Shown in pieces: positions 347-45,644 of a stretch of DNA of 45,644 nt; the first letter of the stretch is position 1; each line of letters begins with the position of its first letter. This stretch comes from a virus. The stretch is taken from the IMG/VR virus record IMGVR_UViG_3300045988_113672, one strand, 5' to 3'. Both the position numbers and the translations under genes were made by a program. The notes under the pieces were generated by a model. That model was not told where the DNA came from. It saw only the letters and a list, made by a program, of their open reading frames with translations, and ran no database searches.

Positions 347-422
347 GCCGGTGTAGTTCAATAGGCAGAACGGCGCACTTGTAACGCGCGCGTTGTCGGT
401 TCGATTCCGGCCCCCGGCTCCA
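347..422 (+). tRNA. tRNA-Thr (anticodon UGU), CCA encoded
   Basis: Hand-folded cloverleaf of 76 nt. Acceptor GCCGGTG/CCCCGGC has one mismatch. D-arm is GTTC-AATAGGCA-GAAC. Anticodon stem is GCGCA/CGCGC with loop CTTGTAA. Variable loop is GCGTT. T-arm is GTCGG-TTCGATT-CCGGC. Discriminator is T, followed by CCA. Confidence 0.85.
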
Positions 423-26010: not shown

Positions 26011-26022
26011 TTGAAAGGAAAA

Positions 26023-26943: not shown

Positions 26944-27177
26944 ATGACCGAAGCCATCATCGTAGCCCTGATTACCGGCGGCATCTCGCTGATCGGCACC
27001 CTCGCGTCCACCCGCAGCAGCGCCAAATCCACACAGGCGCTCGTGGACTACAAGCTCAAGGAGCTCAAGGAAAGCGTGGATAGGCACAACAGCATCATCG
27101 AGCGCACGTACAGGCTCGAGGGGAGAATGGAAAATTGCGAACACGATATCCGCGACATCAAGCAGCGGATCAATTAA
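26944..27177 (+). CDS. lysis-associated membrane protein (N-terminal TM plus coiled coil)
   Basis: It begins MTEAIIVALITGGISLIGTLA and continues with heptad-like sequence. It lies between the endolysin and the holin. Confidence 0.4.
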   Translation: MTEAIIVALITGGISLIGTLASTRSSAKSTQALVDYKLKELKESVDRHNSIIERTYRLEGRMENCEHDIRDIKQRIN

Positions 27178-27194
27178 GAAGGGAGCATTATATT

Positions 27195-27494
27195 ATGGAT
27201 ATTACTACGCTTGGCACCGTAACCGCCATCGTCGCCATCTGCTACCTGATCGGCCTGGCCGTTAAGGCCATCCCCAATATCAAGGATAACCTGATCCCCG
27301 TGATCGTCGGCCTGTGCGGCGGTGCGCTGGGCGTTGCCGGGCTGTACCTGATGCCCGAATTTCCCGCCGAGGACGTGATGAACGCCGTGGCCATCGGCAT
27401 TGTGTCGGGGCTTGCGTCCACCGGCGTGAACCAGGTATATAAGCAGATCGCAGTTAAGGGAAAAGAAGAAGAACCGCCCGAAGACCTGGGCTGA
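27195..27494 (+). CDS. holin
   Basis: It is 99 aa with about three hydrophobic segments and a charged C-terminus KGKEEEPPEDLG. ATG 27195 follows GGGAG. Confidence 0.6.
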   Translation: MDITTLGTVTAIVAICYLIGLAVKAIPNIKDNLIPVIVGLCGGALGVAGLYLMPEFPAEDVMNAVAIGIVSGLASTGVNQVYKQIAVKGKEEEPPEDLG

Positions 27495-31500: not shown

Positions 31501-34500
31501 GAATTTGCGGATCAGAACGCTGTGACCGGCGCGCTTGCTTCCGCGCTGACCGTCATTGCTTCCCCTCTTACTGTGGGCGGCATGGTGGAATCGATCAAGG
31601 CTGATGTGCTGGGGCAGGAGCTTAACCCCTACGCGCGCGGCTTTGTGTACGGCAACATGAGCGGCACGGCGCGTGCGACGGTCAAGGAGAATATCTCCGA
31701 ATCTGTCGGCGGTGGCGCCGGCGGATGGCTGCTGGGTGCGCTGTATGACGCTTTGATGAGCTACGGCGATTCGATGGTGAGCAGCTACTTCATGGGCGGC
31801 CTGGGTTCTGCTGCCGGTTCCGGCGCTGGCAAGCTGCTGGCAAAGACAGGGCTGACCGAAAATTATGTCAATCTCGCGTCCAATGTGGTATCTTCCTTTG
31901 TGACGGCTTCCGGCCAGGGCATGCAGGCGGTTGGCAACGCCATGATGGACGCAAAGCTGCGTGGCGCGACCCCCGACGAAGCGCGCGTACTTGGCCTTGT
32001 TACCTTCCTGGCTGAGACCGCGACGGAAGCGATCGAGGTTGAGACCATCGATTCTGCCATTCACGGCGGCGCTGAACGGGAATTCAAAGACACGTTCAAG
32101 AAGCTGCTGTTCAACATGTTCAACGAGGGCGCGGGCGAGGGCGTATCCGAATTGGTGGAGGGCATGGCCGACAAGGTTGTGATGGATTACAAGTCCAACT
32201 GGGCTGAATCCGTACAGCGCTATATTGACGAGGGCATGACCAAGAAGCAGGCCGAAGACGCAGCCTGGAAGGAGATCCTGTGGAACGCTGCGGAAGCGGC
32301 GGCTGTTGGCGGAATCTCTGGCGGCCTTGGCACCGGCCTGGGCTATGTACAGGGCCGTATCTTTGGCGATGGCAGCCAGACGCAGGACGCTGTGCAGCCA
32401 ACTGCCGAGACCGTGCAGCAGACGCAGCAGACCGCGCAGGAAACCGTCCAGCAGACCGCACAAGAGCAGACCCAGCAGGAAGCCCCGACGATTGCGCAGG
32501 AGACGCAGAACGCCGATGTGGAGAATGCTGCGCCTGAGACCGCAGAAGCCGCCCAAACGCCAAATACAAAGGAAGAAACGCAGCCCTTTGACACGGGCGA
32601 ACGGCTGACGCAGTATGAGGTAAATGAAAAGACCGTGCGGCAGGTGACGGCGCTGACTGCATCCCTGGAGGCGGACGAGGCCAGCCAGACGGCGACCATC
32701 GGCGCGGCGCTGTTGGGAGATAACGCGACCCCGCAGGAAACGGCCTTTGCCTCCGCGGCGGCGCAGCACATGACCGACACCCTGGGCAGCGACGCGGCTG
32801 TGCGGTTTACCCGCGACGTGCTGCTGCTGGACAGCGACACCAACGGCGTGCGCGCGGCGCTGACTGTTGCGGCGCTGAACAAGGGCGGGAACGCCAGCCA
32901 GGTTGCGCAGCGTATGGCGCAGGAGGGCGTAACGGCTGAGGGCATTCAGGAGCTCAAGGCGGCGGCTGACCTCGATGTGCAGGACGCGAACGTGACCGCG
33001 CAGATGCAGCAGACCGTGCAGGAGAACCAGGTGGCATTGCGCACGGCGCAGCTGATTGGCGACGGCGCGCTGAAAGCCGTACAGCCCTACGAGACGGCGG
33101 TTGCCCAGGCGAAAAGCGTATTGCGCCAGGCTCAGGGCGAATTGCGCAGGCAGGTAAAGCGCCGGGAAGGGCTTGGGCAGAATCTCCTATCTTTACAGGA
33201 ACAGATCAACAGCGGCACGGCGACCCCGCAGCTGCTTGATACCTTTAGATCGACCGTCAAGGACATTGAAGGCCAGATCAAGGTTGTAAACGAGTACACC
33301 CAGCGCGTGGCCAACGCCGAGCAGTCGCTGCACGACGCGCAGAACCAACTGGACACTGTACGCGACGATACGCTGCGGCAGGTACGCCAGCAGGCGCAGC
33401 AGGACGTGGCCGACATGCAGGCGCAGCAGCTTGCGGAGCAGGAGGCGGCGAAGGCTGAACAGGCGCAGCAGGCCGAAGCACAGGAAAAGACCGGCTATCA
33501 GAAGAAGCAGTTTATCCCCTATGATGGCCCTGTCCCGCAGACCGTTGACAATGTGCAGCAGGAAACCGTCGCGATTGACGATGCAAGCTATGCGCAGGTG
33601 CAGCAGATTGTGGAGGATGCGCAGGCGGATTCTGAAACGAAATCTGGCGTGCGCAGCCTGGTCAAGAGTGCGTTGCGCGCTGTGTTTGGAAGCCGATTCG
33701 ATCAAACGCAGGTAACAGTAGACAACGTGCAGTTTGACGGCCAGCCGTATACCGTGACGCTGTTCAAGAATCTGATCAACAAGGTAGTTTCCGACCCGAA
33801 CATGACAACGGAAAAGCTATCGGTGCTAAGCAACATAGAACAGGTCCTCAAGAACGCAATATATGAAACAAGCTCCGATGTTGACAGGAGTCGGCAAAGC
33901 AAGGAACGTGTTGTAAGGTACGATTACCTGTCCTCGCGCACAAAAATAAACGGCCAGGATTACAATGCAATCCTTACCGTTGAAGCGTATGACTATCAGA
34001 ACAAGATGAAAACCTATCGTCTTGAAAACATAGAAATGACGCCTGTCGATTTCCCGTCCGCCACCGGTTACGCACCGGCGCTCGCAGAAACCGACCAGAA
34101 CCAGGTACAGTATCGGTTACGTACCGACCCTCCGGATTCCGTGGCGTCTTCTAATAGTATATTAGCATCCGATGCCGAAAATGTCAATACTGAAAATATT
34201 TCTAATTTGGAATCGCTGAACGATGCGAATGTGCAGGCTTCCTACGGCGTTCCCGGCGTAACGAGCACTGGCAAGAGCGGAACGACCGGCGCAGTTGTTA
34301 GCCCCATCGTGACCGCGCAGAATCTTGCCAAGTCGCTCGGCGTAGGCATGACGCTTGGCACGCGCAAGATGGATACCGGCAGCACGAAGATACCCAAGGC
34401 GGTGCGTGGATATTACGAGCAGAACGCAAAGTATATCGCTGTGCGCTCCAACGAGGCGAGCAGCTATGCGGTAACGATGCACGAAGCCGGGCACGCCATT

Positions 34501-37500
34501 GCAGATAAGATTGGGCTGACCGGCACGCAGGAAATGGTGGATCGGCTGAACCCTGTATTCGCAAAGAATTATAATGCGCAGCAGCTTCCCGGTGAAGCCT
34601 TTGCGGAGTTTGTCAGTTTGTACATGCGTGATAGTCGTATGGCAGAAGAATTTGCAGGCAGCGACTTTATGCGTACGTTTGAATCTGCACTGCGCCGCGC
34701 AGACATTGACAAGGCCGTGCATCAGGCGCGCGACCAGATTCAGACATATGCCGCTGCCTCCACGCTGGACAGAGCCAAGGCCGGCATTATCGATCAGGCC
34801 GATGCGCAGCGCAAGGACAGCATGGCTGAAAAACTTCGCGACTTTGTGACGAACGTTGCCGACTGGACGCGCCCGCTTGAAGACGTGGACAAGGCTTTTG
34901 CGGCCAGCAACGATGGCCAATACGGAAACGTGAGGCAGACTGCCAAGAAGCGCAACTTCGCTGACAGAATCGTTGAAAGCCTGTTCACCAACGCCATGAC
35001 CAACGCTGACCATACGATTATTGGCGAGAGCTTCAGTGCGGCCTTTGAAGGCATTGATGGCAAAAATGCAGATGACTTTATTACCTATGGCCTGCTTAAA
35101 CACTCCCTGAGCAGAGATGTGCAGGGAAAGCAGGTGTTTGCCAATGACCTGACGCACGATCAGCGCGTTGAAGCTGTTCGGCAGATTGAAGAAGCCAGCC
35201 CGCAGTATAAGGAAGCCTTAGATAAGTTTGAAAAAACCTGGCATCAGTTTATGCAGGCTTGGATGGTGGATACAGGTTATCTATCTCAGGAAGCATTTGA
35301 CCGCATGAACGAGATGTATCCCTACTGGTTGCCAACCGTCCGTGCGCGCGAAGGAAAGGTGCGCGGCGGCGGTAGGCGCGGCACGTTTACAATCCACCAG
35401 GCTACCGGCAGTGATCTGCAAATTATCAACCCCATTGACACGATTGCCAACTATGTAACCCGCATCGTGGACATGAATCTGCGGAACAACGTGGCGATTG
35501 CCTTTGACGAGGCATACCAGACCAGCAATGGCATGGGCATTTGGGCGCGTGAGATTACGCAGGATATGCGCAGAACGGCAGTTAACACCGAGGACGTGCA
35601 GCAGCGCGTGAACGACATTCTGTCTGAAGCTGACATAGACACAGACGTGATCGGCAATGTGCTTGAAGCCATCGGCCAAGAAGCGGTTAGCTGGCAGGGG
35701 ACAAACACCAGCACCGAAGGAGATACCCTGTGCGTGGTACGCCGTGATGGCACGAATGCCTATTACCAGTTTGACGCGGACGGGCGGGCGATCTATGAGG
35801 CCCTGACTGGCAACGGCAAGGCGGTTCATTCCGAGACCCGACGCGCCCTGAAAGCATTCTCGAACGTCACGTCCTTTGTCAGTAGAATGGCGACGACATA
35901 TGCTCCGACCTTTGCCATGACCAACCCCATCAAGGACTTGCAAAGCAGTATTTATCACGGCTCCTGGGCCAGCAACTATTTGACCGGCATTGTGAAATGG
36001 TTTGTGTCAGCCTACGAAGTAACCACGAATAGCCAAGGCGTGCAGGAGTACAAAGCGCAGGGCGGCGGCGGATGGAATCAGATTCAGACGGGCTTCCGCA
36101 AGGGCGCAGACGAATACCGCGGGAAGCTGTTTGAAGGTTACTGGAAGCGTGATGCAAAGAGCATTGCAAAGCACATCGGAGAGACGGCGCTTGACGTGGT
36201 GACGCTGGACAGGCTGAATGATATCATTGAAACCGCATCGCGTTACGCCGAATACCGTTTTGGCAAGCATGATCTGAGCACGCCGGAAGGACGCGCGGAA
36301 GCGTTCCAGGCGGCGCAGGATGTTACCACCGACTTTGCGAATGGCGGCAAGGGCGCAGGCGTTCTGATTGCACGCAGCATTATGCCGTTCCTCAACCCCA
36401 ATATTCAGGGCACTTATCGTGCGAGCCTTGAACTGAGCGGGCGCGAGCGCGGACGGCTTGGAGCCAGAATGACCAAGCGCATCGTAAACACGATGTTCCT
36501 TTCTGCCCTTGCATCTGTTATAAGAGCGCGTTTTGGCAGCGACGAAGATAAGGATTTGTACGGTCGAATTTCTGACGGCGTGAAGACTTCCAACCTTATT
36601 ATTCCCAACGTCTTCAATCGTGACAGCGACAGGCGCTTTGTCCGTATCCCTATTTCGCAGGACCCCTTGGATCAGGCGCTATATACGCTCACCACGTCCG
36701 CCATTGACGCTTACAACGGAGATGATGACTTCATCACGGAGCTGCTGGCCGGGGCAAGTCAGATCGTTAGCAACGTAACGCTGGGCGCGTCCGATCTCCT
36801 ATCCGAAGGCAGCCTGCCTGAACGCCTGAACGGCTTTATGCAGGGCACTATCTTTGGGCCTGCATGGGGCCTGATTACCAACCAGACCTACTACGGCGGC
36901 AAGATCGTGGGCGATTATCTGGACGAGCTTAGTCCTGTATCGCAGTACGACGAGACCACCAACGATATGTTCATCTGGCTGGGTGCGCGCCTGGGCGTAT
37001 CGCCGAAGCGGCTGGAATACCTGTACGATCAGTATACTGGCTACGCTGGGCAACTGCTGATGGCTGTTACTGACGGAGATAACGCGCTCAAGACAACGGT
37101 AAATACATTCCATAAACGCCTTACGATTGATCCGGCGTATACGAACGACATTTCCAGCGCGTATTCGGACAACAAGGCGTTTATCAGTCAGCTGCAAAAG
37201 ACGATTTCGAAAACCGGCACTGACGGCAAAATGCTGCGTAGCGGCCTGACCGAGGATGAACGTTCGCAGGCATACGAGGAAATCAAGGCCATGAACAAGA
37301 AGGGCGGTCTGCTGAAGGATACCAACGATCAGATTTCTGAGCTATGGAACGAGATTCACGCTGTGCAGGACGACGAAACAAAGACCGAAGCTGAACGGAG
37401 AACGCTGATCCTTCAGTATCGAGATCAGATCACCGATTTGCAGTTGAGTTTCAACGAACAGTTTGGACAGTTCCAGGCAAAGTACGTAACCGGTGAAAAC

Positions 37501-37893
37501 CCGTTGACGAAGATGCTGCTTGACCCGCAGAGCGTGAGCGCCTATACCGCGTATGATAAGCTGGATGATACGTTCAAGTCCGATGAGGATAAGGCGTACA
37601 TGCAGCTTGCGCGTGCGGCGTGGGAGAAGACCAAGAACGCAAGCGCGCTGCCGCATCCGAACAGCGATTTTAGCGTCAACGAAACGACCTATGAAATCGG
37701 CGATGACGACTGGCAGGCATACACGGCGGAATACAAGCTGGCCTACTCCGACTACCTGCTCAAGAACTCCGCAAAGTGGACCATCCTGTCGGACAGCGAA
37801 CAGGTTGAATTGCTGAAAGAAGCCCACAAAAAGGGGCATGAAGCAGCGAAGAAGTGGTACATGGCCAAGTACGGAATAAAGGAGAAGCGATAA
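28510..37893 (+). CDS. giant 3127-aa polyvalent-type protein with an HExxH zincin motif and a Gly-rich hydrophobic core
   Basis: It is a single uninterrupted ORF. HEAGH lies at aa 1991-1995 (nt 34480-34494) with a downstream GEAFAEF. A Gly-zipper/TM-like region lies at about nt 31500-32350, and a Q/T-rich linker at about 32380-32580. Confidence 0.85.
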   Translation: MSQLSKAYEKNKKVQQSIASNLQEDEPKKQLTTVSMTSSKQQLKQVLQEQKQKEKNPVQRKNTKIGASQSPKFVRTAFISPVQPIVRTQPSSNLQRLLAKVETDNSWYSGSTPTRSEAAARIYTISQTDPARARKLNQAFSQLQRDPSSQFYNPYGSATNKAIQELANLGVDMSGGITEDWLAKNSWLKAYYRTSGNSGTPLAPTKNSTAEQNAAYYYYQILKAQDTTNQAEAEWKALQEEIGYWANRKDRNYSDDQIISRIDWSKYKTLARMDDGAASGVPLTLNSSIGYSQDALKGVIWAARNGSTGNPLADSAKAVLGAGKTWQEDKKISAKLDPSSKAYSPYSVGSTLDDAALYFGVDSFSKDWLENNRNILAGNDATAKKMYQTVYNAEQTTLKAEQELDELHASIDRYLESTTDPDQILRMIDGEYKTLDSLDESMREGKLIGTTRAIDYRKQDIEAEVRRRCLAKNTQINGADYVGAVWKLLGLPEVKTEAISAVGASRDNAINAGGATIADAGTDEEKTVFKTAYSSDFDTYLTQIKGAMDSGVSDPQGGYDYTLKRADQYAAENYMDAMDTVLTYEEAQQAKDEAIRKLNDLGVVYDEDGNIDMSNRKGSLIVPGADTAMAAAGMSDAPRKLRKTSDDTADEIDMLRKEIASGYGKDEKGKRVKLTDEEIELKHSQLQALLHPEAITATQKEINQLLAVVDESTETMERTQKSYDKANITLKNITEGYSVADRMQALTGVKAGDSDSTLAQMTYLFSIARNYEPTEYRSANLYALAMDGQGATYEETAAAARQGMAENKQMIEQINFALGELESKGAHLPDDKMENVKRYVAALERDVQDAEYFLLRENDDYYQESQDVSNEIFAAWQDYNELNPLGMLNPFADRKGYTALDNVVAIRLEQLQMEEASKTIGRNLKSDKVIMSTGNPAKDGYYTEDINQLSKNECMTYLYIRGKEGVDAAQEYYDHLTNAEYGVINMRRNLDWTAKAQEFADQNAVTGALASALTVIASPLTVGGMVESIKADVLGQELNPYARGFVYGNMSGTARATVKENISESVGGGAGGWLLGALYDALMSYGDSMVSSYFMGGLGSAAGSGAGKLLAKTGLTENYVNLASNVVSSFVTASGQGMQAVGNAMMDAKLRGATPDEARVLGLVTFLAETATEAIEVETIDSAIHGGAEREFKDTFKKLLFNMFNEGAGEGVSELVEGMADKVVMDYKSNWAESVQRYIDEGMTKKQAEDAAWKEILWNAAEAAAVGGISGGLGTGLGYVQGRIFGDGSQTQDAVQPTAETVQQTQQTAQETVQQTAQEQTQQEAPTIAQETQNADVENAAPETAEAAQTPNTKEETQPFDTGERLTQYEVNEKTVRQVTALTASLEADEASQTATIGAALLGDNATPQETAFASAAAQHMTDTLGSDAAVRFTRDVLLLDSDTNGVRAALTVAALNKGGNASQVAQRMAQEGVTAEGIQELKAAADLDVQDANVTAQMQQTVQENQVALRTAQLIGDGALKAVQPYETAVAQAKSVLRQAQGELRRQVKRREGLGQNLLSLQEQINSGTATPQLLDTFRSTVKDIEGQIKVVNEYTQRVANAEQSLHDAQNQLDTVRDDTLRQVRQQAQQDVADMQAQQLAEQEAAKAEQAQQAEAQEKTGYQKKQFIPYDGPVPQTVDNVQQETVAIDDASYAQVQQIVEDAQADSETKSGVRSLVKSALRAVFGSRFDQTQVTVDNVQFDGQPYTVTLFKNLINKVVSDPNMTTEKLSVLSNIEQVLKNAIYETSSDVDRSRQSKERVVRYDYLSSRTKINGQDYNAILTVEAYDYQNKMKTYRLENIEMTPVDFPSATGYAPALAETDQNQVQYRLRTDPPDSVASSNSILASDAENVNTENISNLESLNDANVQASYGVPGVTSTGKSGTTGAVVSPIVTAQNLAKSLGVGMTLGTRKMDTGSTKIPKAVRGYYEQNAKYIAVRSNEASSYAVTMHEAGHAIADKIGLTGTQEMVDRLNPVFAKNYNAQQLPGEAFAEFVSLYMRDSRMAEEFAGSDFMRTFESALRRADIDKAVHQARDQIQTYAAASTLDRAKAGIIDQADAQRKDSMAEKLRDFVTNVADWTRPLEDVDKAFAASNDGQYGNVRQTAKKRNFADRIVESLFTNAMTNADHTIIGESFSAAFEGIDGKNADDFITYGLLKHSLSRDVQGKQVFANDLTHDQRVEAVRQIEEASPQYKEALDKFEKTWHQFMQAWMVDTGYLSQEAFDRMNEMYPYWLPTVRAREGKVRGGGRRGTFTIHQATGSDLQIINPIDTIANYVTRIVDMNLRNNVAIAFDEAYQTSNGMGIWAREITQDMRRTAVNTEDVQQRVNDILSEADIDTDVIGNVLEAIGQEAVSWQGTNTSTEGDTLCVVRRDGTNAYYQFDADGRAIYEALTGNGKAVHSETRRALKAFSNVTSFVSRMATTYAPTFAMTNPIKDLQSSIYHGSWASNYLTGIVKWFVSAYEVTTNSQGVQEYKAQGGGGWNQIQTGFRKGADEYRGKLFEGYWKRDAKSIAKHIGETALDVVTLDRLNDIIETASRYAEYRFGKHDLSTPEGRAEAFQAAQDVTTDFANGGKGAGVLIARSIMPFLNPNIQGTYRASLELSGRERGRLGARMTKRIVNTMFLSALASVIRARFGSDEDKDLYGRISDGVKTSNLIIPNVFNRDSDRRFVRIPISQDPLDQALYTLTTSAIDAYNGDDDFITELLAGASQIVSNVTLGASDLLSEGSLPERLNGFMQGTIFGPAWGLITNQTYYGGKIVGDYLDELSPVSQYDETTNDMFIWLGARLGVSPKRLEYLYDQYTGYAGQLLMAVTDGDNALKTTVNTFHKRLTIDPAYTNDISSAYSDNKAFISQLQKTISKTGTDGKMLRSGLTEDERSQAYEEIKAMNKKGGLLKDTNDQISELWNEIHAVQDDETKTEAERRTLILQYRDQITDLQLSFNEQFGQFQAKYVTGENPLTKMLLDPQSVSAYTAYDKLDDTFKSDEDKAYMQLARAAWEKTKNASALPHPNSDFSVNETTYEIGDDDWQAYTAEYKLAYSDYLLKNSAKWTILSDSEQVELLKEAHKKGHEAAKKWYMAKYGIKEKR

Positions 37894-37895
37894 CC

Positions 37896-38090
37896 ATGCG
37901 TTTTGACCGCATCCATCAATCCAGCATCGACGCGGCCGAGGCAGCCTACGGGCTGACTGACGACGAGCGCGAGGTGCTGTCCCTGTCCAGGCGCGGGAAA
38001 TCTGTTGTCGCCATCGGCATGGAGCTGGGCATGAGCACCCGAACCGTCAGCCGCCGCAGAGCGGACATCAAGCGCAAGATCAACATCTGA
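37896..38090 (+). CDS. small LuxR/sigma-r4-type HTH protein
   Basis: LTDDEREVLSLSRRGKSVVAIGMELGMSTRTVSRRRADIKRKI. ATG 37896 follows AAGGAG, 2 nt after the giant gene's stop. Confidence 0.65.
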   Translation: MRFDRIHQSSIDAAEAAYGLTDDEREVLSLSRRGKSVVAIGMELGMSTRTVSRRRADIKRKINI

Positions 38091-38094
38091 CACG

Positions 38095-38121
38095 GCCCCC
38101 GCAAGGGGGCTTTTTATTTTT
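38095..38121 (+). terminator. intrinsic terminator
   Basis: GCCCCC-GCAA-GGGGGC followed by TTTTTATTTTT. Confidence 0.85.
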
Positions 38122-38133
38122 GTAAAAAATGTG

Positions 38134-38162
38134 TTGACAATATCCCAAATCGATGCTATTAT
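38134..38162 (+). promoter_or_regulatory. near-consensus sigma-70-type promoter
   Basis: TTGACA (38134-39), a 17-nt spacer, then TATTAT (38157-62). Confidence 0.7.
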
Positions 38163-38313
38163 AACAGCGTCGGGAGACAATCCCGATGTCAGGAGAGCAA
38201 TCCCCTGCTGAATTGAAACAGTGTTAGTATCAAGATGATGAACTTTTGAAAAAAAGTATCGGAATCGGAAAATAGTCCTGCAGCAATGCGGGGCTGTTTT
38301 TTTATTGCCCAAA

Positions 38314-38341
38314 TGGCGCGAAACTGGCGCGAATGTGGCGC
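38314..38341 (+). repeat. three direct TGGCGC(GAA) repeats at 11-bp period
   Basis: The sequence is aaaTGGCGCGAAacTGGCGCGAAtgTGGCGCttt, in the leader of the 38411 gene. Confidence 0.7.
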
Positions 38342-38410
38342 TTTTACCTCCGTGTTTTGTGCGACAATCAGCACACCGGGAACCCCGGAATAACACAAGG
38401 GAGGATTATC

Positions 38411-38986
38411 ATGGACGTTGAATACACTCGCAGAGGCCAAGGCAATCTGAATACTGTGCTTGGCGCAATCGGAACGGCTGGCGCTGTTGGCATTCTGAAC
38501 GGCGGACTGGGCGGCTTGTTTGGCGGCGCGCGCAATGTGAACGTCAACGGCGAATGCAGCGAAAATCACCTGGTTGATCGCTATGAAGCTTCTCAGCAGG
38601 CAAAAATCGCCCAGCTTGAGACCGAAATTAAGCTGCGCGACAGCACCATCTATACCGATCAGAAGAGCCTTGCGCTGTACCAGTACATTGACGGGCAGAT
38701 CAAGGAGATTCGCAGCGAACTGTCCGATCAGCGCGTACACAACCAGCGCACTGAGGATAGCTTTGTCCTGGCGCGTCAGGATCTGGCTACCGTTAAGGCC
38801 GAGCTGGACGGCAAGATCAAGATGGAAGCCGAAAAGCGCTGCTGCGGCGATAACTCCATCGTGACCTATGCAAACGCCACCTTCTACCCCAAGCAGGTTG
38901 CTGACGTGACCGTAGGCACTGCCACAACCGCGCAGAGCACCTACAATCCGCTGCCCAAGTGCGGCGATTGCTGTGGCAACAACTGA
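38411..38986 (+). CDS. hypothetical protein: Gly-zipper N-terminus, coiled coil, Cys-rich C-terminus
   Basis: ATG 38411 follows AAGGGAGG. It contains LGAIGTAGAVGILNGGLGGLFGG, then a coiled coil, and ends ...CGDCCGNN. Confidence 0.7.
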   Translation: MDVEYTRRGQGNLNTVLGAIGTAGAVGILNGGLGGLFGGARNVNVNGECSENHLVDRYEASQQAKIAQLETEIKLRDSTIYTDQKSLALYQYIDGQIKEIRSELSDQRVHNQRTEDSFVLARQDLATVKAELDGKIKMEAEKRCCGDNSIVTYANATFYPKQVADVTVGTATTAQSTYNPLPKCGDCCGNN

Positions 38987-39047
38987 CAAAAGCGGGGGGG
39001 CTGGCGCTGACCGGCTCTTCCCGTTTTTCTGATTGGAGGATTACGTA

Positions 39048-39395
39048 ATGGTTAGTATTGAGACCATAGAGCGAGGCCTTGCGCAGTATATCGACGCTGA
39101 ATTGCTGCCTAAATTGCCGCAGGACGGCCTTAAGGGCTTTGGCGTGCGGTCGATGGCTACGGCTATTGTAATGCGCGGGGGACGGCTCCTGAGCGCCTAC
39201 GCGACCTGGAAGCCTGCGCAGATCATGGGCGCTATTACGCCTGACGGCGCAGTTGATATAGATTTTTTGCGCGATGTTTTCAAGGGCGGCATCCAGCAGG
39301 GCGGCCAGAAAATTGATTTGCCGCTTGGCGTGTCGCTGAGAATTACGCCTGAGGATGTAGATCACATATACAGCTACATCATGCAGGCGCAGTAA
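39048..39395 (+). CDS. hypothetical protein (115 aa)
   Basis: ATG 39048 follows GGAGGA. Confidence 0.6.
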   Translation: MVSIETIERGLAQYIDAELLPKLPQDGLKGFGVRSMATAIVMRGGRLLSAYATWKPAQIMGAITPDGAVDIDFLRDVFKGGIQQGGQKIDLPLGVSLRITPEDVDHIYSYIMQAQ

Positions 39396-39405
39396 GGAGG
39401 AAATC

Positions 39406-39714
39406 ATGAAAGAACTGAAAGAAGTCATCCGCGACATCGGGGAAATCCTGGACAGCGCGGAGATGTACGCCAAGGAAGCCGTCAAGCACAAGACGCAGTA
39501 TCCTTCCCTGGCAGGCGTCTATTGCCGCATCGCGCAGGACGATCTGTCTCACGTCGATATGCTGCATAAGCAGGCCGTTGAGATGATTGGTGAACAGAAG
39601 CGCTCCGGTGCGACCGTCCCCGAATCCATGCAGGCTGTGTGGGATTTTGAGCACGAGCGCCAGATCGAGGACGTGGCGGACGTGAAGCGGCTGATCGATA
39701 TGTACAAGGAGTGA
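39406..39714 (+). CDS. hypothetical helical protein (102 aa)
   Basis: The ATG follows AAGGAGG. The sequence looks all-helical and has H/E/D pairs. Confidence 0.6.
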   Translation: MKELKEVIRDIGEILDSAEMYAKEAVKHKTQYPSLAGVYCRIAQDDLSHVDMLHKQAVEMIGEQKRSGATVPESMQAVWDFEHERQIEDVADVKRLIDMYKE

Positions 39715-39717
39715 CAA

Positions 39718-39764
39718 TTAGTCATAGCGTTAGTCATAGAAATTAGTCATAGCGTTAGTCATAG
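39718..39764 (+). repeat. four direct TTAGTCATAG repeats (candidate integrase arm-type sites, P arm)
   Basis: Copies lie at 39718, 39730, 39743 and 39755. Confidence 0.65.
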
Positions 39765-39791
39765 CAGAACTTAATGAAACCCAAGCATAAG

Positions 39792-39828
39792 AAAAACCCC
39801 CGATTTCGTACTGAAATGGGGGCTTTTT
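39792..39828. terminator. bidirectional intrinsic terminator
   Basis: AAAAA-CCCCCgATTTC-gtact-GAAATGGGGG-cTTTTT. Confidence 0.8.
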
Positions 39829-39837
39829 CGGACATTT

Positions 39838-39887
39838 TGGTCGAGGTGACAGGATTTGAACCTGCGACCTTTTGGTCCCGAACCAAG
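39838..39887 (-). other. attP core: 3' 50 nt (positions 27-76) of a tRNA-Pro(CGG) gene
   Basis: The reverse complement is CTTGG-TTCGGGA-CCAAA-AGGTC-GCAGG-TTCAAAT-CCTGT-CACCTCG-A-CCA. No D-arm or 5' acceptor strand lies upstream. G72/A73 are typical of bacterial tRNA-Pro. Confidence 0.8.
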
Positions 39888-39924
39888 TCAAACATGTTGA
39901 TATTGCTAATATTTTTAACAATGA

Positions 39925-39945
39925 TTAGTCATAGATTAGTCATAA
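39925..39945 (+). repeat. two further TTAGTCATA(G/A) repeats (P' arm)
   Basis: Copies lie at 39925 and 39936, in the same orientation as the four on the other side of the core. Confidence 0.6.
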
Positions 39946-39966
39946 TGTTTTTCGGGCGGTTTGGTA

Positions 39967-41088
39967 TTATATCAGGTCTGTGATGGCGCGAAGAGATTGA
40001 ACGTCCTCGCTCTGATAGTATTTTGTCATGGATGCGTCGGCGTGGCCCATCAGGGCGGCCTTGTCCGTGTCGCTGCCGGGGACGGCCTTGAGCAGGTTGG
40101 CGAAAGTATGTCGGCAGGAATAGGGCGTTCTGTCGGCGATACCCAGCTTTTCCATGGCAGGGACAAAGCAGAACTTGCGAAAGTATTCTTCGGTCATCCG
40201 TGTGCCGTCAGCGCGTGGGAACAGGTATTGACTGCTGTCCGAAAGGCGATCCTGCATGATCTGCGCCAGCTTTGGCGACAACGTGATCGTGCGGTCTGTG
40301 CCTGCCTTGGTTTTGCCGCCGCCGATCAGGGTATTCGACTCTGGATTGTACGCGGCCTTTTTTAAGTTGAACATCTCTGTAGGCCTAAAGCCTGTGTAGC
40401 ACATAAAGTAGATATAATCCGCATAGAGCACCGTTCCGACGGCGCTTTTTATTTTGTCCAATTCGGCCAGCGTAAACGCCGGGCGCGTGCCCTTCTTTTC
40501 CTTGCCCGTGTGCAGGTGGGCGGAATACACCTTGTCGATGATGTCATTGTCGTAGGCATATTTGCTGAGCAGGCCGGCGATTGTTCGCATGTCCTCTTTT
40601 GTCGATTTTCCGCGCGGGCAGTTGTCTATGCACTGCTGCCAGTCCTCTGTTTTGATATCCCTAAATTGTACAAAATGCAAAGCCTCGAAATGCTTAAAGG
40701 CGCACTTATAGCAGGACAGGGTTTGCTTGCCGATTCGTCCCTCATAGGTGGGCAGCCATTTGTCGTACAGGCCGATCAGCGTAATGGCGCTCTGGTTGGC
40801 GCGCTGCCCCTTGAGCGTGCTGCAATAGGCAAGTGCTTCCGTCTTGGTCTTAAAGCCGCCCTTTGTGCGGTATTTCCTGCGCTGGACGCCGTCCTTGCCG
40901 ACGTACACGCCAAGCGTTACCTGCGCTGTCCAGGTCCTGCCGTTCTTAAATGCCGTCCCGGTGCCATTGCCGCGCGTCTTCACGCCCTTTGGCTTTACCT
41001 CCTGTCGCATCCCGCACCAGGGGCAGAACGGCGCGCCGTCCGGGATTGCGCCCTTGCACTTTTTGCATTCCATGGCGTTTTTCTCCAT
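39967..41088 (-). CDS. int: tyrosine integrase with an N-terminal zinc ribbon
   Basis: CKKCKGAIPDGAPFCPWCG forms the zinc ribbon. The C-terminal catalytic signatures are ...YSCRHTFANLL...LMGHADASMTKYYQ. Confidence 0.9.
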   Translation of the reverse strand: MEKNAMECKKCKGAIPDGAPFCPWCGMRQEVKPKGVKTRGNGTGTAFKNGRTWTAQVTLGVYVGKDGVQRRKYRTKGGFKTKTEALAYCSTLKGQRANQSAITLIGLYDKWLPTYEGRIGKQTLSCYKCAFKHFEALHFVQFRDIKTEDWQQCIDNCPRGKSTKEDMRTIAGLLSKYAYDNDIIDKVYSAHLHTGKEKKGTRPAFTLAELDKIKSAVGTVLYADYIYFMCYTGFRPTEMFNLKKAAYNPESNTLIGGGKTKAGTDRTITLSPKLAQIMQDRLSDSSQYLFPRADGTRMTEEYFRKFCFVPAMEKLGIADRTPYSCRHTFANLLKAVPGSDTDKAALMGHADASMTKYYQSEDVQSLRAITDLI

Positions 41089-41184
41089 TTTTATCGCATC
41101 ATATGTGATTTGCGCGACAGCTTTTTTATCAGATGTGACGGATTATCCATACATGGATAGGCGAATTAACCCGCCTTCTCGACG

Positions 41185-41685
41185 TCAGCCTGTAACGCGG
41201 TAAATAAAGCCGTAGTTGGGGTCGAGCAGATCGAACATCAGCAGCAGGCCGAAGATAAAGGACATGATGATAATTGCAACGATCATCACGCTGATCTTGT
41301 GCCGCAGCTTTTTAATCGTGCCTTCCAGCGCTTCTATTCTGTCCTGATCGTCCCCGTGTGATTTTTCCTTTTCATCTTTTAAATACTGCACGCTATGCCT
41401 TAAGTTGGCTATCAGGTCGCTGGTGTGCTGCTGCGGCGTGTAATCGTGTATCACGGTTGGCTCGTGCCGGATGCCCGCCAGCTCGTCCAGGGAGCCGTCG
41501 GCAGATCGCACCAGGGCGGCCACGGTCTGGAACTGCGGCGCGGTCTGTCCGTCCAGGATGCGCGTGATCGTCTGCCCGCTTACGCCGGATACGGCTTCCC
41601 ATTGCTTGATTGTCCAATTTTTGCTGCTGCGCAAGCCAGCCAGATAGCCAGCAATGTCCATGCGATTGTCGGTTGTCTCATCCAT
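41185..41685 (-). CDS. membrane-anchored HTH protein
   Basis: The internal ATG (MDETTDNRMD...) follows GGTGAGGGA. The HTH is WTIKQWEAVSGVSGQTITRIL, followed by a coiled coil and the C-terminal TM VMIVAIIIMSFIFGLLLMF. Confidence 0.65.
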   Translation of the reverse strand: MDETTDNRMDIAGYLAGLRSSKNWTIKQWEAVSGVSGQTITRILDGQTAPQFQTVAALVRSADGSLDELAGIRHEPTVIHDYTPQQHTSDLIANLRHSVQYLKDEKEKSHGDDQDRIEALEGTIKKLRHKISVMIVAIIIMSFIFGLLLMFDLLDPNYGFIYRVTG

Positions 41686-45008: not shown

Positions 45009-45644
45009 ATGTGCCAACTCAAATCCTGCCTGGTGCTCAAGGATCGCGTGTACTGCCCGGACTACGACAGCCACCAGGACATGCTGGACAAGCTGGGTAT
45101 CAAGGACGACTACCTGGGCGCCAGCAAAACCTTTGTGCGGGTGGAGCTTACGCCGCCGGACGGCATGAGATCGCTGATGGAGCCGCTGGACAGGTGGACG
45201 CTCAAGGTGGATCAGGATGTAACGCCCGAGTGGTGGGATGCGGAGGCCGACCGGCAGCGCGTGGAGGAAGCTGTTGAGGCATGGCGCAGGGAGCACGTTT
45301 TTTCGGAGGGCGAACACAGTATCAGCGCCGGAATTGTCTATGCTTTGAGCAGCGTTAAGGTGTATGCCTGCGGAAGCGCCACGGTGAAAGCCTATGGCAG
45401 CGCTAAGGTGACAGCCTACAACCGTGCCACGGTGGAAGCCTACGAACACGCCACGGTGACAGCCAACGGCAGCGCCAGGGTGACAGCCAGGAACAGCGTC
45501 ATAGTGAAAGCCTATGGCAGCGCCATGGTGGAAGCCTGGGAAAGCGCCACGGTGGAAGCCTACGAACACGCCACGGTGACAGCCAACGACAGCGCCAGGG
45601 TGACAGCCAGGAACAGCGTCATAGTGAAAGCCTATGGCAGCGCC
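45009..45644 (+). CDS. octapeptide-repeat (beta-solenoid-like) protein, open at the window end and finishing at nt 125
   Basis: ATG 45009 follows AAGGAGGGAAATAAC. The N-terminal domain is MCQLKSCLVLKDRVYCPDYDSHQDMLDKLGIKDDY...FVRVELTPPDG. At least 13 8-residue repeats follow. The track lists only out-of-frame ORFs here. Confidence 0.75.
   Translation, partial: MCQLKSCLVLKDRVYCPDYDSHQDMLDKLGIKDDYLGASKTFVRVELTPPDGMRSLMEPLDRWTLKVDQDVTPEWWDAEADRQRVEEAVEAWRREHVFSEGEHSISAGIVYALSSVKVYACGSATVKAYGSAKVTAYNRATVEAYEHATVTANGSARVTARNSVIVKAYGSAMVEAWESATVEAYEHATVTANDSARVTARNSVIVKAYGSA
45429..45644 (+). repeat. tandem 120-bp repeat (40 aa, five octapeptides)
   Basis: 45429-45524 and 45549-45644 differ at one base. 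A further partial copy is at nt 1-55. Confidence 0.9.

What the first reader, a model, noticed from the sequence alone, without database searches (positions are those of the whole stretch)
38411..39714. Autonomous three-gene cassette of unknown function between the late operon and attP
Three co-oriented genes (191, 115 and 102 aa) sit in the classic prophage accessory or defence hotspot next to the attachment site. They are insulated by terminators on both sides (38095-38121 and 39792-39828). They have their own sigma-70-type promoter, which implies expression in the lysogen.
- Gene 1 combines a Gly-zipper membrane-like N-terminus (LGAIGTAGAVGILNGGLGGLFGG), a coiled coil of about 100 aa, and a Cys-rich end (EKRCCGDN...PKCGDCCGNN).
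- Gene 2 has no recognisable motif.
- Gene 3 looks like a four-helix bundle with paired acidic and His residues.

I recognise none of the three as a known defence, toxin or structural family. Together they are a candidate superinfection-exclusion, abortive-infection or lysogenic-conversion system.
Basis: inference. Interest (0 to 1): 0.7.

Follow-up and report, generated by a model that had tools for sequence, protein, structure and literature searches.

The report
Widespread unknown three-gene gut-phage cassette
The three genes are real and form one copy of a very common, mix-and-match accessory cassette carried next to the integration site by temperate phages of dominant gut Clostridia; its parts can now be described, but its job (most likely an envelope-level phage-exclusion or lysis-control role) is still untested.

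Summary
Three co-oriented genes, g1 38411-38986, g2 39048-39395 and g3 39406-39714, lie between two intrinsic terminators. A near-consensus sigma-70 promoter sits upstream. The cassette is the last coding unit before attP (a tRNA-Pro 3' fragment with arm repeats) and the integrase of a ~45-kb temperate phage of gut Oscillospirales.

It is not a one-off:
- g1 relatives form 747 clusters at 50% identity.
- g2 follows g1 in about 95-99% of about 230 loci.
- The third slot holds either g3 or the unrelated DUF7841.

New findings:
- g3 is a half ferritin/rubrerythrin-like domain.
- g2 has a fold seen only in uncharacterised phage proteins.
- g1 is a glycine-zipper anchor plus a ~100-residue helix plus a Cys-rich tail, with two alternative C-terminal classes.
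- A GC-rich hairpin follows g1 in 95% of loci, which suggests g1 is made in excess.
- A near-isogenic phage has swapped g1+g2 as a block but kept g3 and the promoter.

There is no match to known defence, holin, spanin or toxin families. Function is inferred only. I favour an envelope-acting exclusion module (about 0.35). Rivals are lysis control, other lysogenic conversion, bacteriocin and virion fibre. An intervening terminator-like hairpin weakens the claim of lysogen expression.

The parts
38094..38121 (+). Intrinsic terminator that closes the upstream unit (polyvalent protein plus GerE-like gene)
   Evidence: Seven-pair stem with 6 GC pairs, then TTTTATTTTT.
38134..38162 (+). Sigma-70-type promoter, TTGACA-17-TATTAT with TG extension
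   Evidence: Matches 11/12. It is conserved at 92% in the near-isogenic phage L165 even though g1 and g2 differ there.
38168..38410 (+). Structured 5' leader. It contains a terminator-like hairpin at 38269-38300 followed by U7 (to 38304).
   Evidence: MFE -88.9 kcal/mol, z -4.8. Hairpin dG -18.6. No Rfam family matches. Conserved only in near-identical phages.
38411..38986 (+). g1: 191-aa class I protein. It has an N-terminal glycine-zipper hydrophobic segment (~14-39), a Gly/Asn/Cys linker, a ~100-residue helix (57-157) and a Cys-rich C-terminal tail (143-191).
   Evidence: Translation. AF2 gives one long helix at pLDDT 72-94 with the ends at low confidence. Heptad periodicity. Hydropathy of the N-terminal segment 1.43. 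2537 relatives in 90% clusters and 747 in 50% clusters. No Pfam, PHROG, PADLOC, NCBIfam or PDB match.
38994..39028 (+). GC-rich hairpin plus U5 between g1 and g2 (attenuator or 3'-end stabiliser)
   Evidence: An equivalent hairpin is present in about 95% of 60 related loci, mean z -3.9. Five of 6 consensus pairs show compensatory changes.
39048..39395 (+). g2: 115-aa soluble alpha+beta protein, the invariable partner gene of g1
   Evidence: AF2 pLDDT 77.7, pTM 0.67. No PDB fold match (best E 0.6). BFVD matches only uncharacterised gut-phage proteins. No Pfam hit in 61 members. Follows g1 in 73/78, 79/80 and 73/74 loci.
39406..39714 (+). g3: 102-aa half ferritin/rubrerythrin-like helical protein. 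It keeps E19 and D46-x-x-H49.
   Evidence: Family profile against PDB: sulerythrin 5.7e-6, bacterioferritin 2.3e-5, rubrerythrin 4e-5. Pfam Rubrerythrin hits 15/46 members and Ferritin hits 7/46. Weak NCBIfam hits to PA2169 four-helix bundle and MbfA.
39791..39834 (+). Intrinsic terminator that closes the cassette
   Evidence: Hairpin dG -18.6, z -3.2, followed by CUUUUU.
39716..39765 (.). Arm-type direct repeats (TTAGTCATAG x4). A second set lies at 39924-39949 on the other side of the core.
39837..39888 (-). tRNA-Pro 3' fragment, the attP core
   Evidence: 87-90% matches to tRNA-Pro genes. No complete tRNA is found here.
39967..41088 (-). Tyrosine integrase, convergent with the cassette
   Evidence: Pfam Phage_integrase 7.8e-15 and Arm-DNA-bind_4.

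Best explanation
What it is (well supported). This is one copy of a widespread, modular accessory operon. It occupies the last slot before attP in temperate phages of gut Oscillospirales and Christensenellales.

The architecture is:
- a regulatory gap, often with a terminator;
- g1;
- a conserved GC hairpin;
- g2;
- a third gene, either half-ferritin g3 or DUF7841;
- a terminator.

How it most likely works (inferred).
- g1 is made in excess over g2 and g3 because of the hairpin.
- g1 anchors in the cytoplasmic membrane through its uncharged glycine-zipper helix.
- It oligomerises through the ~100-residue helix.
- It displays a small Cys-rich head that is stabilised by metal or disulfides. The head comes in two exchangeable classes.
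- g2 and the third protein are soluble and cytoplasmic, and they co-evolve as a pair. They probably assist or regulate g1. The ferritin-like g3 is a possible metal or redox sensing element.

My preferred function is an envelope-level phage-exclusion module, by superinfection exclusion or a gated membrane effector. It would be expressed from the prophage and probably also late in infection. The function is a guess from anatomy, position and polymorphism, not a demonstrated activity.
For: Module reality.
- g1 is followed by g2 in 73/78 genome loci, 79/80 IMG/VR class I loci and 73/74 class II loci with room.
- The third gene is the g3 family in 53/73 genome loci and DUF7841 in 17/73.
- Divergences of g1, g2 and g3 are correlated, r 0.53-0.60.

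Position.
- The next gene downstream is a tyrosine integrase in 24 loci, a serine recombinase in 9, and host genes in others.
- Upstream neighbours are endolysins, holins, small sigma-r4/GerE proteins or opposite-strand genes.
- In this window the cassette stays with attP, 10 kb from the phage's own holin and endolysin.

Transcriptional autonomy.
- The window has terminator, promoter and terminator.
- The gap upstream of g1 is at least 100 nt in 52/64 loci, and the upstream gene is on the opposite strand in 12/64.
- Terminator-like hairpins lie within 300 nt upstream in 29/64 loci, against 25/198 control windows.

g1 in excess. A hairpin follows g1 in about 95% of loci.

Membrane anchor.
- The N-terminal segment is an uncharged stretch of about 27 residues with GxxxGxxxGxxxG.
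- Its mean maximum hydropathy across 209 relatives is 1.45, and 91% reach 1.2 or more.
- g2 and g3 have no hydrophobic segment.

Mobility and polymorphism, as expected of a conflict or specificity gene.
- The same cassette occurs in podo-like, Gp58/BppU sipho-like and other backbones.
- Near-isogenic phage L165 keeps the flanks at 91-96% identity but has no DNA similarity across g1+g2, and carries a class II g1.
- Classes I and II are about equally common, 424 against 351 IMG/VR contigs.
Against: - There is no functional or expression data of any kind.
- No PADLOC hit.
- g1 is unusually conserved for an arms-race gene: median pairwise identity is 54%, against 27% for g2 and 20% for g3.
- The hydrophobic segment is only borderline for a transmembrane helix; 29% of relatives reach 1.6.
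- Topology is unresolved. The K/R bias suggests N-in/C-out. But about 6.7 conserved Cys per protein lie after the anchor, and Firmicutes generally avoid Cys in exported proteins (my own knowledge). g2 and g3 lack signal peptides.
- A terminator-like hairpin lies between the promoter and g1.
- A consensus promoter is not family-wide. The best score is 10 or more in 12% of loci against 6% of controls.
- A g1 homologue without detectable g2 or g3 sits in virulent Bacteroides phages DAC16-23, so g1 also serves a lytic cycle.
- Known Gram-positive superinfection-exclusion genes sit in the lysogeny module, not at this end (my own knowledge).
Confidence: 0.35

Rival explanations
1. Lysis-control module. 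g1 would be a large-ectodomain, holin-like or holin-modulating membrane protein, comparable in layout to T4 holin T. g2 and the third protein would be cytoplasmic regulators or antiholins that set lysis timing.
For: - In many phages the cassette lies directly after endolysin and holin genes: Amidase_2 x11, GH25, NlpC/P60, ELLD, and holin_4_1, holin_6_1 and r1t holins (example L004).
- g1 has a single N-terminal hydrophobic helix with a glycine zipper, as in pore-forming helices.
- g1 is expressed in excess over its partners.
- A g1 homologue occurs in virulent Bacteroides phages.
- In 55% of loci no terminator was found upstream, so late read-through is possible.
Against: - This phage already has a Pfam holin (Phage_holin_5_2, 2.5e-24) next to its endolysin-like gene. 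The cassette is 10 kb away behind a terminator.
- In the whole polyvalent-protein phage group the cassette follows attP, not the lysis genes.
- No holin family matches g1.
- In Firmicutes phages, adjacency to lysis genes is the default for anything at the genome end (my own knowledge).
Confidence: 0.2
2. Lysogenic-conversion module unrelated to phage defence. It would change host physiology, for example metal, redox or oxygen tolerance or envelope properties, through a ferritin-like protein and a Cys-rich membrane protein.
For: - The position and transcription-unit layout are moron-like.
- g3 belongs to the rubrerythrin/ferritin superfamily. In anaerobes this superfamily is linked to peroxide and iron handling (my own knowledge).
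- g1 has conserved Cys clusters.
- Prevalence is very high in strict gut anaerobes.
Against: - Many g3 family members have lost the His/Glu ligands.
- g3 is replaced by the unrelated DUF7841 in a quarter to half of loci: 17/73 genome loci, 42/80 IMG/VR class I loci and 36/80 class II loci. A specific metal chemistry is therefore not essential.
- g3 is only half a di-iron site.
- A g1 homologue in virulent phages argues for a phage-centred role.
Confidence: 0.2
3. Bacteriocin, polymorphic toxin or RiPP-like weapon. g1 would be an abundantly made precursor or toxin with a conserved N-terminal part and an exchangeable C-terminal warhead. The downstream genes would give immunity or maturation.
For: - A hairpin sits right after the first gene, as after bacteriocin and lantibiotic structural genes (the comparison is my own knowledge).
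- The N-terminal half is conserved and the C-terminal classes are alternative.
- The tail is rich in Cys, Thr and Ser.
- g1+g2 is replaced as a block between near-isogenic phages.
Against: - g2 clades barely track g1 class (0.60 against a null of 0.49). They track the third-gene type instead (0.79 against 0.35). This is the opposite of cognate toxin-immunity coupling.
- There is no leader or export motif, and no modification enzyme or transporter in or next to the cassette.
- The C-terminal parts are small and highly conserved within each class.
Confidence: 0.08
4. Virion accessory fibre. g1 would be a coiled-coil fibre or whisker with an exchangeable tip, g2 its assembly chaperone, and the pair would be expressed late.
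For: - The layout is a coiled-coil stalk plus a small polymorphic C-terminal tip, with high expression, a small downstream gene, and a position at the end of the late region. This resembles lambda stf-tfa before attP (the comparison is my own knowledge).
Against: - The same conserved N-terminal half occurs on unrelated podo-, sipho- and other backbones. It is therefore unlikely to dock on a particular virion.
- A hydrophobic glycine-zipper N-terminus is odd for a fibre.
- Terminators and a promoter separate the cassette from the structural genes.
- g2 does not co-vary with the g1 tip class.
- No structural PHROG matches.
Confidence: 0.07

Closest known systems
Morons and lysogenic-conversion cassettes at the lysis-attP junction of temperate phages (for example the S. 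aureus immune-evasion cluster, S. pyogenes toxin/paratox loci, lambda lom/bor)
   Same: - It is an independent-looking transcription unit (terminator, promoter, genes, terminator).
- It sits at the genome end next to attP.
- It is shared by otherwise unrelated phages and exchanged between near-identical ones.
   Different: - The gene families are new.
- The cassette is far more conserved and prevalent than typical morons: hundreds of phage lineages with a fixed gene order and an internal attenuator.
- Expression from the prophage is unproven.
Membrane superinfection-exclusion proteins (Lactococcus Sie2009, HK97 gp15, T4 Imm/Sp)
   Same: g1 is a small protein with one N-terminal membrane segment and a ~150-residue remainder. 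It is phage-encoded and present in both temperate and virulent phages.
   Different: - There is no sequence or profile similarity.
- It sits at the attP-distal end of the prophage, not in the lysogeny module.
- It always comes with two soluble partner genes.
- It is much more conserved.
T4 holin T with antiholins RI and RIII
   Same: There are three small genes. One is a ~200-aa bitopic protein with a single N-terminal TMD and a Cys-containing large domain. The other two are ~100-aa partners. The cassette is often adjacent to lysis genes.
   Different: - There is no homology.
- The g1 body is a long helix, not a globular domain.
- g2 and g3 lack signal or SAR segments.
- The phage has a separate canonical holin.
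i-spanin (lambda Rz type)
   Same: The layout is an N-terminal anchor, a coiled coil and conserved Cys.
   Different: - The hosts are monoderm Clostridia.
- No embedded or overlapping lipoprotein ORF was found in 0/68 g1 genes, including the Bacteroides phage copy.
Ferritin-like superfamily: rubrerythrin/sulerythrin, bacterioferritin, 'half-ferritin' encapsulated ferritins
   Same: The g3 family profile matches the helix pair that carries E...ExxH. Window g3 keeps E19 and D46xxH49.
   Different: - It has only one helix pair plus a third helix (102 aa).
- The ligands are lost in many members.
- It is below Pfam thresholds for the window protein itself.
- It has no rubredoxin domain and no encapsulin context.
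Pfam DUF7841 (PF25223)
   Same: It occupies the same third slot of the cassette in a quarter to half of loci (17/73 genome loci; 42/80 IMG/VR class I loci; 36/80 class II loci). The example L024 protein scores 2.1e-26 against the Pfam model.
   Different: It is unrelated in sequence to g3 (hhalign E 0.34). It is not present in this window. Its function is unknown, with no PDB relative.

Membership tests
Moron (autonomous accessory transcription unit in a prophage) | Own promoter upstream of the genes | tested here: inconclusive
   In the window the promoter matches 11/12 plus TG, but it is followed by a terminator-like hairpin before g1. Across 65 loci the enrichment is only weak: a best score of 10 or more in 12% against 6% of controls. 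Twelve of 64 loci have opposite-strand genes upstream, so those must have their own promoter.
Moron (autonomous accessory transcription unit in a prophage) | Own terminator, and insulation from the late operon | tested here: met
   Terminators lie at 38094-38121 and 39791-39834. Upstream terminator-like hairpins occur in 29/64 loci against 25/198 control windows.
Moron (autonomous accessory transcription unit in a prophage) | Present in unrelated phages and exchanged or variable between close relatives | tested here: met
   The cassette occurs on different virion backbones. Near-isogenic L165 has a block replacement of g1+g2. Phages with related integrases (L166, L167) carry a different cassette in the same slot.
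Moron (autonomous accessory transcription unit in a prophage) | Expressed from the repressed prophage | not testable with these tools
   This needs transcriptomics of a lysogen.
Known anti-phage defence systems (PADLOC-DB v2) | Profile match of any component | tested here: not met
   g1, g2 and g3 give no family at E up to 1.
Holins | Match to a holin family; at least one clear TMD; adjacency to the endolysin | tested here: not met
   No Pfam or PHROG holin hit. The TMD is borderline. In this window the endolysin-like gene and a true holin are 10 kb upstream. Adjacency is met in many other loci.
Two-component spanin | Outer-membrane lipoprotein partner (embedded, overlapping or adjacent) and a diderm host | tested here: not met
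   Zero of 68 g1 genes carry an out-of-frame lipobox ORF. The hosts are Clostridia MAGs.
Ferritin-like superfamily (for g3) | Helix pair with the Glu ... Glu/Asp-x-x-His ligand motif, detectable by profile | tested here: met
   Profile A8 against PDB: sulerythrin 5.7e-6, bacterioferritin 2.3e-5, rubrerythrin 4e-5. Pfam Rubrerythrin hits 15/46 members, best 5.3e-8. The window protein keeps E19 and D46xxH49.
Ferritin-like superfamily (for g3) | Complete four-helix bundle with a full di-metal site in one chain | tested here: not met
   g3 is 102 aa with a single helix pair plus one helix. The profile aligns to each half of sulerythrin separately. A dimer would be needed, which is an inference.
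Ferritin-like superfamily (for g3) | Metal binding or ferroxidase/peroxidase activity | not testable with these tools
   The ligands are lost in many family members.
Toxin-immunity / polymorphic toxin pair | The immunity gene co-varies with the toxin's variable C-terminal domain | tested here: not met
   The nearest g2 neighbour shares the g1 class in 0.60 of cases against a null of 0.49 (maximum null 0.65). It shares the third-gene type in 0.79 of cases against 0.35.
RiPP / lanthipeptide cluster | Modification enzyme or transporter genes next to the precursor | tested here: not met
   None is found among the neighbours. g2 and g3 are about 100-aa proteins without enzyme family hits.

The most novel reading that the evidence does not exclude
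The cassette is a previously unrecognised and highly prevalent phage-encoded conflict system of gut Clostridia. A membrane-embedded coiled-coil protein made in excess carries an exchangeable Cys-rich head (classes I and II). It excludes or aborts competing phages. A co-evolving cytoplasmic pair (g2 with a half-ferritin, or g2' with DUF7841) gates or senses. Relatives of the effector are reused by virulent Bacteroides phages.
Probability: 0.25. Interest if true: 0.8.

Novelty: new variant of a known kind. Interest (0 to 1): 0.6.

Why it matters
Oscillospirales and Christensenellales are among the most abundant and least tractable human gut bacteria. Almost nothing is known about what their prophages do for them.

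A single cassette recurs in hundreds of phage lineages. It has a fixed gene order, a conserved internal attenuator and combinatorial allele swapping. It is therefore under strong selection and probably shapes phage-phage or phage-host interactions in the gut.

The analysis turns 'three hypothetical proteins' into specific, testable parts:
- a membrane-anchored polymorphic coiled-coil protein;
- a new small fold;
- a half-ferritin or DUF7841 partner.

It also identifies natural near-isogenic phage pairs that differ only in g1+g2, which are ideal for experiments. Finally, it defines at least two protein families (g1, g2) that no curated library covers.

Tried and rejected
No match or no useful result:
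- Pfam, PHROG, PADLOC and NCBIfam scans of g1, g2 and g3 gave nothing, except weak ferritin-like hints for g3.
- PDB profile searches found nothing for g1, g2 or DUF7841.
- Foldseek of the g1 model against BFVD found nothing. The model is low-confidence and consists of one long helix.
- Foldseek of g2 against PDB found no fold match.
- Rfam scans of the leader found nothing.
- Literature searches for DUF7841, glycine-zipper prophage proteins, Oscillospiraceae morons and ferritin-like defence genes found nothing relevant.
- A g1 search in PLSDB plasmids found no match.

Hypotheses tested and rejected:
- Spanin: rejected, because there is no lipobox ORF and the hosts are monoderm.
- The two genes after the g1 homologue in Bacteroides phage DAC23 as remote g2/g3 homologues: not supported by hhalign.
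- g3 and DUF7841 as homologues: rejected.
- The 630-aa 'fusion' P0212 as a link between g1 and polyvalent proteins: no similarity to the window's giant protein. It may be a deletion or an assembly artefact, although g2- and g3-sized genes follow it.
- A strong consensus promoter as a family-wide feature: not found.
- g2 as a cognate partner of the g1 C-terminal class: not supported.
- Remote homology between g1 and the Gly-rich/TM/Cys-rich proteins that head the cassettes of L166 and L167: not significant.

Attempts that failed for technical reasons:
- Searching for cassette-less relatives through the polyvalent protein's C-terminus failed, because those C-termini are mosaic.
- My first length-greedy gene caller was unreliable in this GC-rich DNA. 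I replaced it with a codon-usage caller.
Full report
**1. The observation**

The three ORFs are as described:
- g1, 38411-38986, 191 aa;
- g2, 39048-39395, 115 aa;
- g3, 39406-39714, 102 aa.

All three are on the + strand and each follows a GGAGG-type ribosome-binding site. A codon-usage model trained on long ORFs selects them over the long antisense ORFs typical of this 56.6% GC DNA.

The cassette has the same GC content as the rest of the phage, 0.55-0.56.

The transcription signals are:
- an intrinsic terminator at 38094-38121;
- a near-consensus promoter at 38134-38162, TTGACA-17-TATTAT with an extended-10 TG;
- a good terminator at 39791-39834.

Directly downstream come:
- TTAGTCATAG arm-type repeats;
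- a tRNA-Pro 3' fragment, with no full tRNA there;
- a convergent tyrosine integrase with an arm-binding domain.

Near-identical 44,150-bp contigs were assembled in several permutations from Hadza gut metagenomes. This shows a circular temperate phage genome, so the site is attP.

The phage has the following other genes:
- terminase, portal and major head genes;
- an endolysin-like gene at 26011-26904;
- a Pfam holin at 27135-27494;
- a 3127-aa polyvalent protein with LPD3 and LPD38 domains. This class is described in PMC5512222.
- a 64-aa GerE/sigma-r4 protein just before the cassette.

**2.

First, the promoter is 248 nt from g1. The leader is strongly structured (z -4.8). It contains a 32-nt hairpin followed by U7 at 38269-38304. 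The promoter may therefore drive a short RNA or an attenuated leader rather than simple constitutive expression.

Second, a GC-rich hairpin plus U5 lies between g1 and g2.

**3. The cassette is a conserved, widespread module**

Size of the g1 family:
- 2537 relatives among 90%-identity clusters, mostly ~190 aa on 20-50 kb contigs;
- 747 clusters at 50% identity.

The word-indexed search found few g2 and g3 relatives (6 and 33). That result was a sensitivity artefact.

Seventy-one loci from species-representative genomes carry g1. Nearly all are Clostridia MAGs: Oscillospiraceae, Acutalibacteraceae, Christensenellaceae, Gemmiger, Dysosmobacter and Faecousia.

In those loci, HMMs find g2 immediately after g1 in 73/78.

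The third gene falls into two unrelated families:
- the g3 family in 53/73 loci;
- a 150-190-aa family in 17/73 loci, which is Pfam DUF7841.

An independent set from IMG/VR reproduces this. There are 424 viral contigs with class I g1. In the best 80, g2 follows g1 in 79. The third gene is DUF7841 in 42 and g3 in 23.

The same trio sits on an unrelated siphovirus-like backbone (Gp58, DUF859, BppU, Amidase_2-SLH endolysin).

Among 44 loci, median pairwise identity is 54% for g1, 27% for g2 and 20% for g3. The divergences are correlated. The genes therefore travel together but evolve at very different rates.

**4. Context**

Downstream neighbours are tyrosine integrases (24 loci) or serine recombinases (9 loci). 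In other loci they are host genes such as FeoB, YibE/F and lipoate ligase, as expected at the far end of an integrated prophage.

Upstream neighbours are endolysins and holins, small sigma-r4/GerE proteins, or genes on the opposite strand.

Signs of transcriptional separation from the upstream genes:
- The gap before g1 is at least 100 nt in 52/64 loci.
- Twelve of 64 loci have divergent upstream genes.
- Terminator-like hairpins lie within 300 nt upstream in 29/64 loci, against 25/198 control windows.

A consensus sigma-70 promoter is only weakly enriched.

The cassette therefore behaves as a moron-type unit at the attP-proximal hotspot. Its promoter is not uniform across the family.

**5. 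The parts**

g1:
- An uncharged hydrophobic stretch of about 27 residues carries a perfect GxxxGxxxGxxxG zipper. Its hydropathy is borderline for a transmembrane helix.
- A variable Gly/Asn/Cys linker follows.
- AF2 predicts one long helix, residues 57-157, at pLDDT 72-94. It shows heptad periodicity.
- The tail is almost invariant: RRCCGDN..NATFYPK..VADVT.GT.TTAQ..YNP.P.CG.CC.
- Nothing in Pfam, PHROGs, PADLOC, NCBIfam, PDB or BFVD resembles it.

g2:
- It is soluble. AF2 gives an alpha+beta fold at pLDDT 77.7.
- It has no PDB counterpart.
- In BFVD it matches only uncharacterised gut-phage proteins, including two from crAss-like phages at lower scores.
- None of 61 members hits Pfam.

g3:
- Its family profile matches sulerythrin, bacterioferritin and rubrerythrin at E around 1e-5.
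- Fifteen of 46 members hit Pfam Rubrerythrin.
- The match covers a single helix pair with Glu ... Asp/Glu-x-x-His. This makes g3 a half-ferritin that would need to dimerise to form a metal site (inference).
- Many relatives have lost the ligands.

**6. A conserved attenuator**

In about 95% of 60 loci, the ~50-nt g1-g2 spacer folds into a GC-rich hairpin directly after the g1 stop codon (mean z -3.9).
- The stem sequences differ between lineages.
- Compensatory changes occur at 5 of 6 consensus pairs.
- Some hairpins are followed by a U-run and others are not.

The simplest reading is partial termination or 3'-end stabilisation, which would make g1 far more abundant than g2 and g3 (inference).

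**7. Modularity and allele swapping**

A near-isogenic phage, L165, compares to the window as follows:

| Window region | Content | Identity to L165 |
|---|---|---|
| 36002-38115 | polyvalent protein, GerE gene, terminator | 93% |
| 38100-38219 | promoter and leader start | 92% |
| 38372-39389 | g1+g2 | no DNA similarity |
| 39390-39712 | g3 | 96% |
| 39713-40922 | attP and integrase body | no DNA similarity |
| 40923-41500 | integrase 5' (N-terminal) end and adjacent lysogeny-side DNA | 91% |

The g1 of L165 is a 162-aa class II protein. It shares the N-terminal half with class I but ends in ...VCPEPM.RYNSWTAP plus a Thr-rich tail.

Class II is about as common as class I: 351 IMG/VR contigs. 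It also carries g2 followed by g3 or DUF7841.

The g1 class and the third-gene type combine freely.

g2 clades follow the third-gene type (0.79 against a null of 0.35). They hardly follow the g1 class (0.60 against 0.49).

The cassette is therefore built from two modules:
- g1, class I or class II;
- g2 with g3, or g2' with DUF7841.

Phages with related integrases, L166 and L167, carry a different cassette in the same slot. It is headed by a Gly-rich, clearly transmembrane, Cys-rich coiled-coil protein. This protein has no significant similarity to g1.

A g1 homologue with features of both tails occurs in virulent Bacteroides phages DAC16-23. No g2 or g3 is detectable there.

**8. Mechanism**

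What is shown:
- the gene order;
- the linkage between the genes;
- the position of the cassette;
- the transcription signals;
- the fold class of each protein;
- the polymorphism.

What is inferred: g1 is an abundant, membrane-anchored, oligomeric stalk with a small exchangeable Cys-rich head, and g2 with the third protein forms a cytoplasmic accessory pair.

I favour an envelope-level exclusion function (about 0.35) for these reasons:
- The slot is a moron hotspot.
- The unit is insulated from the late genes.
- It moves between unrelated phages.
- It is swapped between near-identical phages.
- Its head is dimorphic.
- Exclusion genes are also used by virulent phages (my own knowledge).

Points against this reading:
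- There is no expression or phenotype data.
- g1 is unusually conserved.
- The TM score is borderline.
- Topology is unresolved: many Cys lie after the anchor, and the partner proteins are cytoplasmic.
- A terminator-like hairpin lies in the leader.

Rivals:
- Lysis control (0.2). The cassette is adjacent to holins and endolysins in many phages and g1 has a glycine-zipper helix. But this phage has its own holin 10 kb away.
- Defence-unrelated conversion, such as redox or metal handling (0.2).
- Bacteriocin or toxin-immunity (0.08). This is weakened.
- Virion fibre plus chaperone (0.07). This is weakened by the backbone-independent N-terminus.
- Spanin, rejected.

**9. Novelty and verdict**

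The kind of element, an attP-proximal accessory cassette, is known. The g1 and g2 families, the half-ferritin/DUF7841 alternation, the conserved attenuator and the combinatorial allele structure are not described in any library or paper I could search.

I rate it a new variant of a known kind, with interest 0.6. It is a solid and prevalent target with natural isogenic variants for experiments, but it has no demonstrated function.

Noticed in passing
window 38134-38305: A near-consensus promoter is followed about 135 nt later by a strong hairpin plus U7. This could be a separate small RNA or an attenuator upstream of g1. The leader folds with z -4.8. A possible 12-codon ORF (ATG at 38186) with a GGGAGA site is present. 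No Rfam family matches.
   Followed up: partly
window 38994-39028 and the g1-g2 spacers of about 60 loci: A conserved GC-rich hairpin lies directly after the g1 stop codon in about 95% of loci, with lineage-specific stems. It is likely an intra-operon attenuator.
   Followed up: yes
L165 6841-7690, compared with window 38372-39389: A near-isogenic phage (91-96% identity in the flanks) has replaced g1+g2 with a class II g1 and a different g2. It has separately replaced attP and the integrase body. Its g3 and promoter are unchanged.
   Followed up: yes
L166 5310-7296 (-) and L167 5334-7438 (-): Phages with 57-70% identical integrases carry another cassette in the same attP-proximal slot. It is headed by a 238-284-aa Gly-rich, clearly transmembrane, Cys-rich coiled-coil protein that ends in NPYCC.../CGCYGC. 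In L167 it ends with a DUF7841 protein. It is analogous in architecture to g1, but hhalign does not find it homologous.
   Followed up: partly
window 28510-37893: A 3127-aa polyvalent protein has LPD3 and LPD38 domains and an HEAGH zincin motif at residue 1991 (34480-34494). In related phages the C-termini of these giants are completely mosaic.
   Followed up: partly
window 37896-38090: A 64-aa GerE/LuxR-type (sigma-70 region 4-like) protein is encoded 2 nt after the giant ORF. Similar small sigma-r4/GerE genes precede the cassette in several other phages.
   Followed up: no
window 39716-39765 and 39924-39949: TTAGTCATAG direct repeats lie on both sides of the tRNA-Pro core. They are probably integrase arm-binding sites.
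   Followed up: partly
window 45375-45644, continuing at 1-32: A 24-nt (also 120-nt) tandem repeat encodes an octapeptide repeat (xAxVxAxx, for example SATVKAYG). It runs off the window end, and the first 32 nt of the window repeat the last 32. This is consistent with a circular contig cut inside this array.
   Followed up: partly
window 347-422: A complete tRNA-Tyr (GTA) gene is carried by the phage.
   Followed up: no
L079/L081 (Bacteroides phage DAC23, record positions 74394-88617): The g1 homologue of this virulent 179-kb phage lies just after a tRNA cluster. It is 1.1 kb upstream of 1114-aa and 2699-aa ORFs, an echo of the neighbourhood of g1 and a giant protein in the window. All of these genes are annotated as hypothetical.
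   Followed up: partly
L082 6001-7893 (protein P0212): A 630-aa protein fuses an unrelated 525-aa N-terminal part to the C-terminal half of g1. It is followed by 113-aa and 96-aa genes and was seen on two contigs. It may be a real fusion, a deletion or an assembly artefact.
   Followed up: partly
Loci (for example L014, L022, L032, L042, L050): A few g1-bearing 40-47-kb contigs are binned into Odoribacter, Akkermansia, Alistipes, Bacteroidaceae or Gastranaerophilales MAGs. These are probably phage contigs mis-binned by coverage rather than true hosts.
   Followed up: no
MAG JAZKZG01 (L015, L051, L060) and MAG CAKUDE01 (L019, L026): Single MAGs carry two or three separate copies of the cassette on different contigs, which indicates polylysogeny with cassette-bearing phages.
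   Followed up: no
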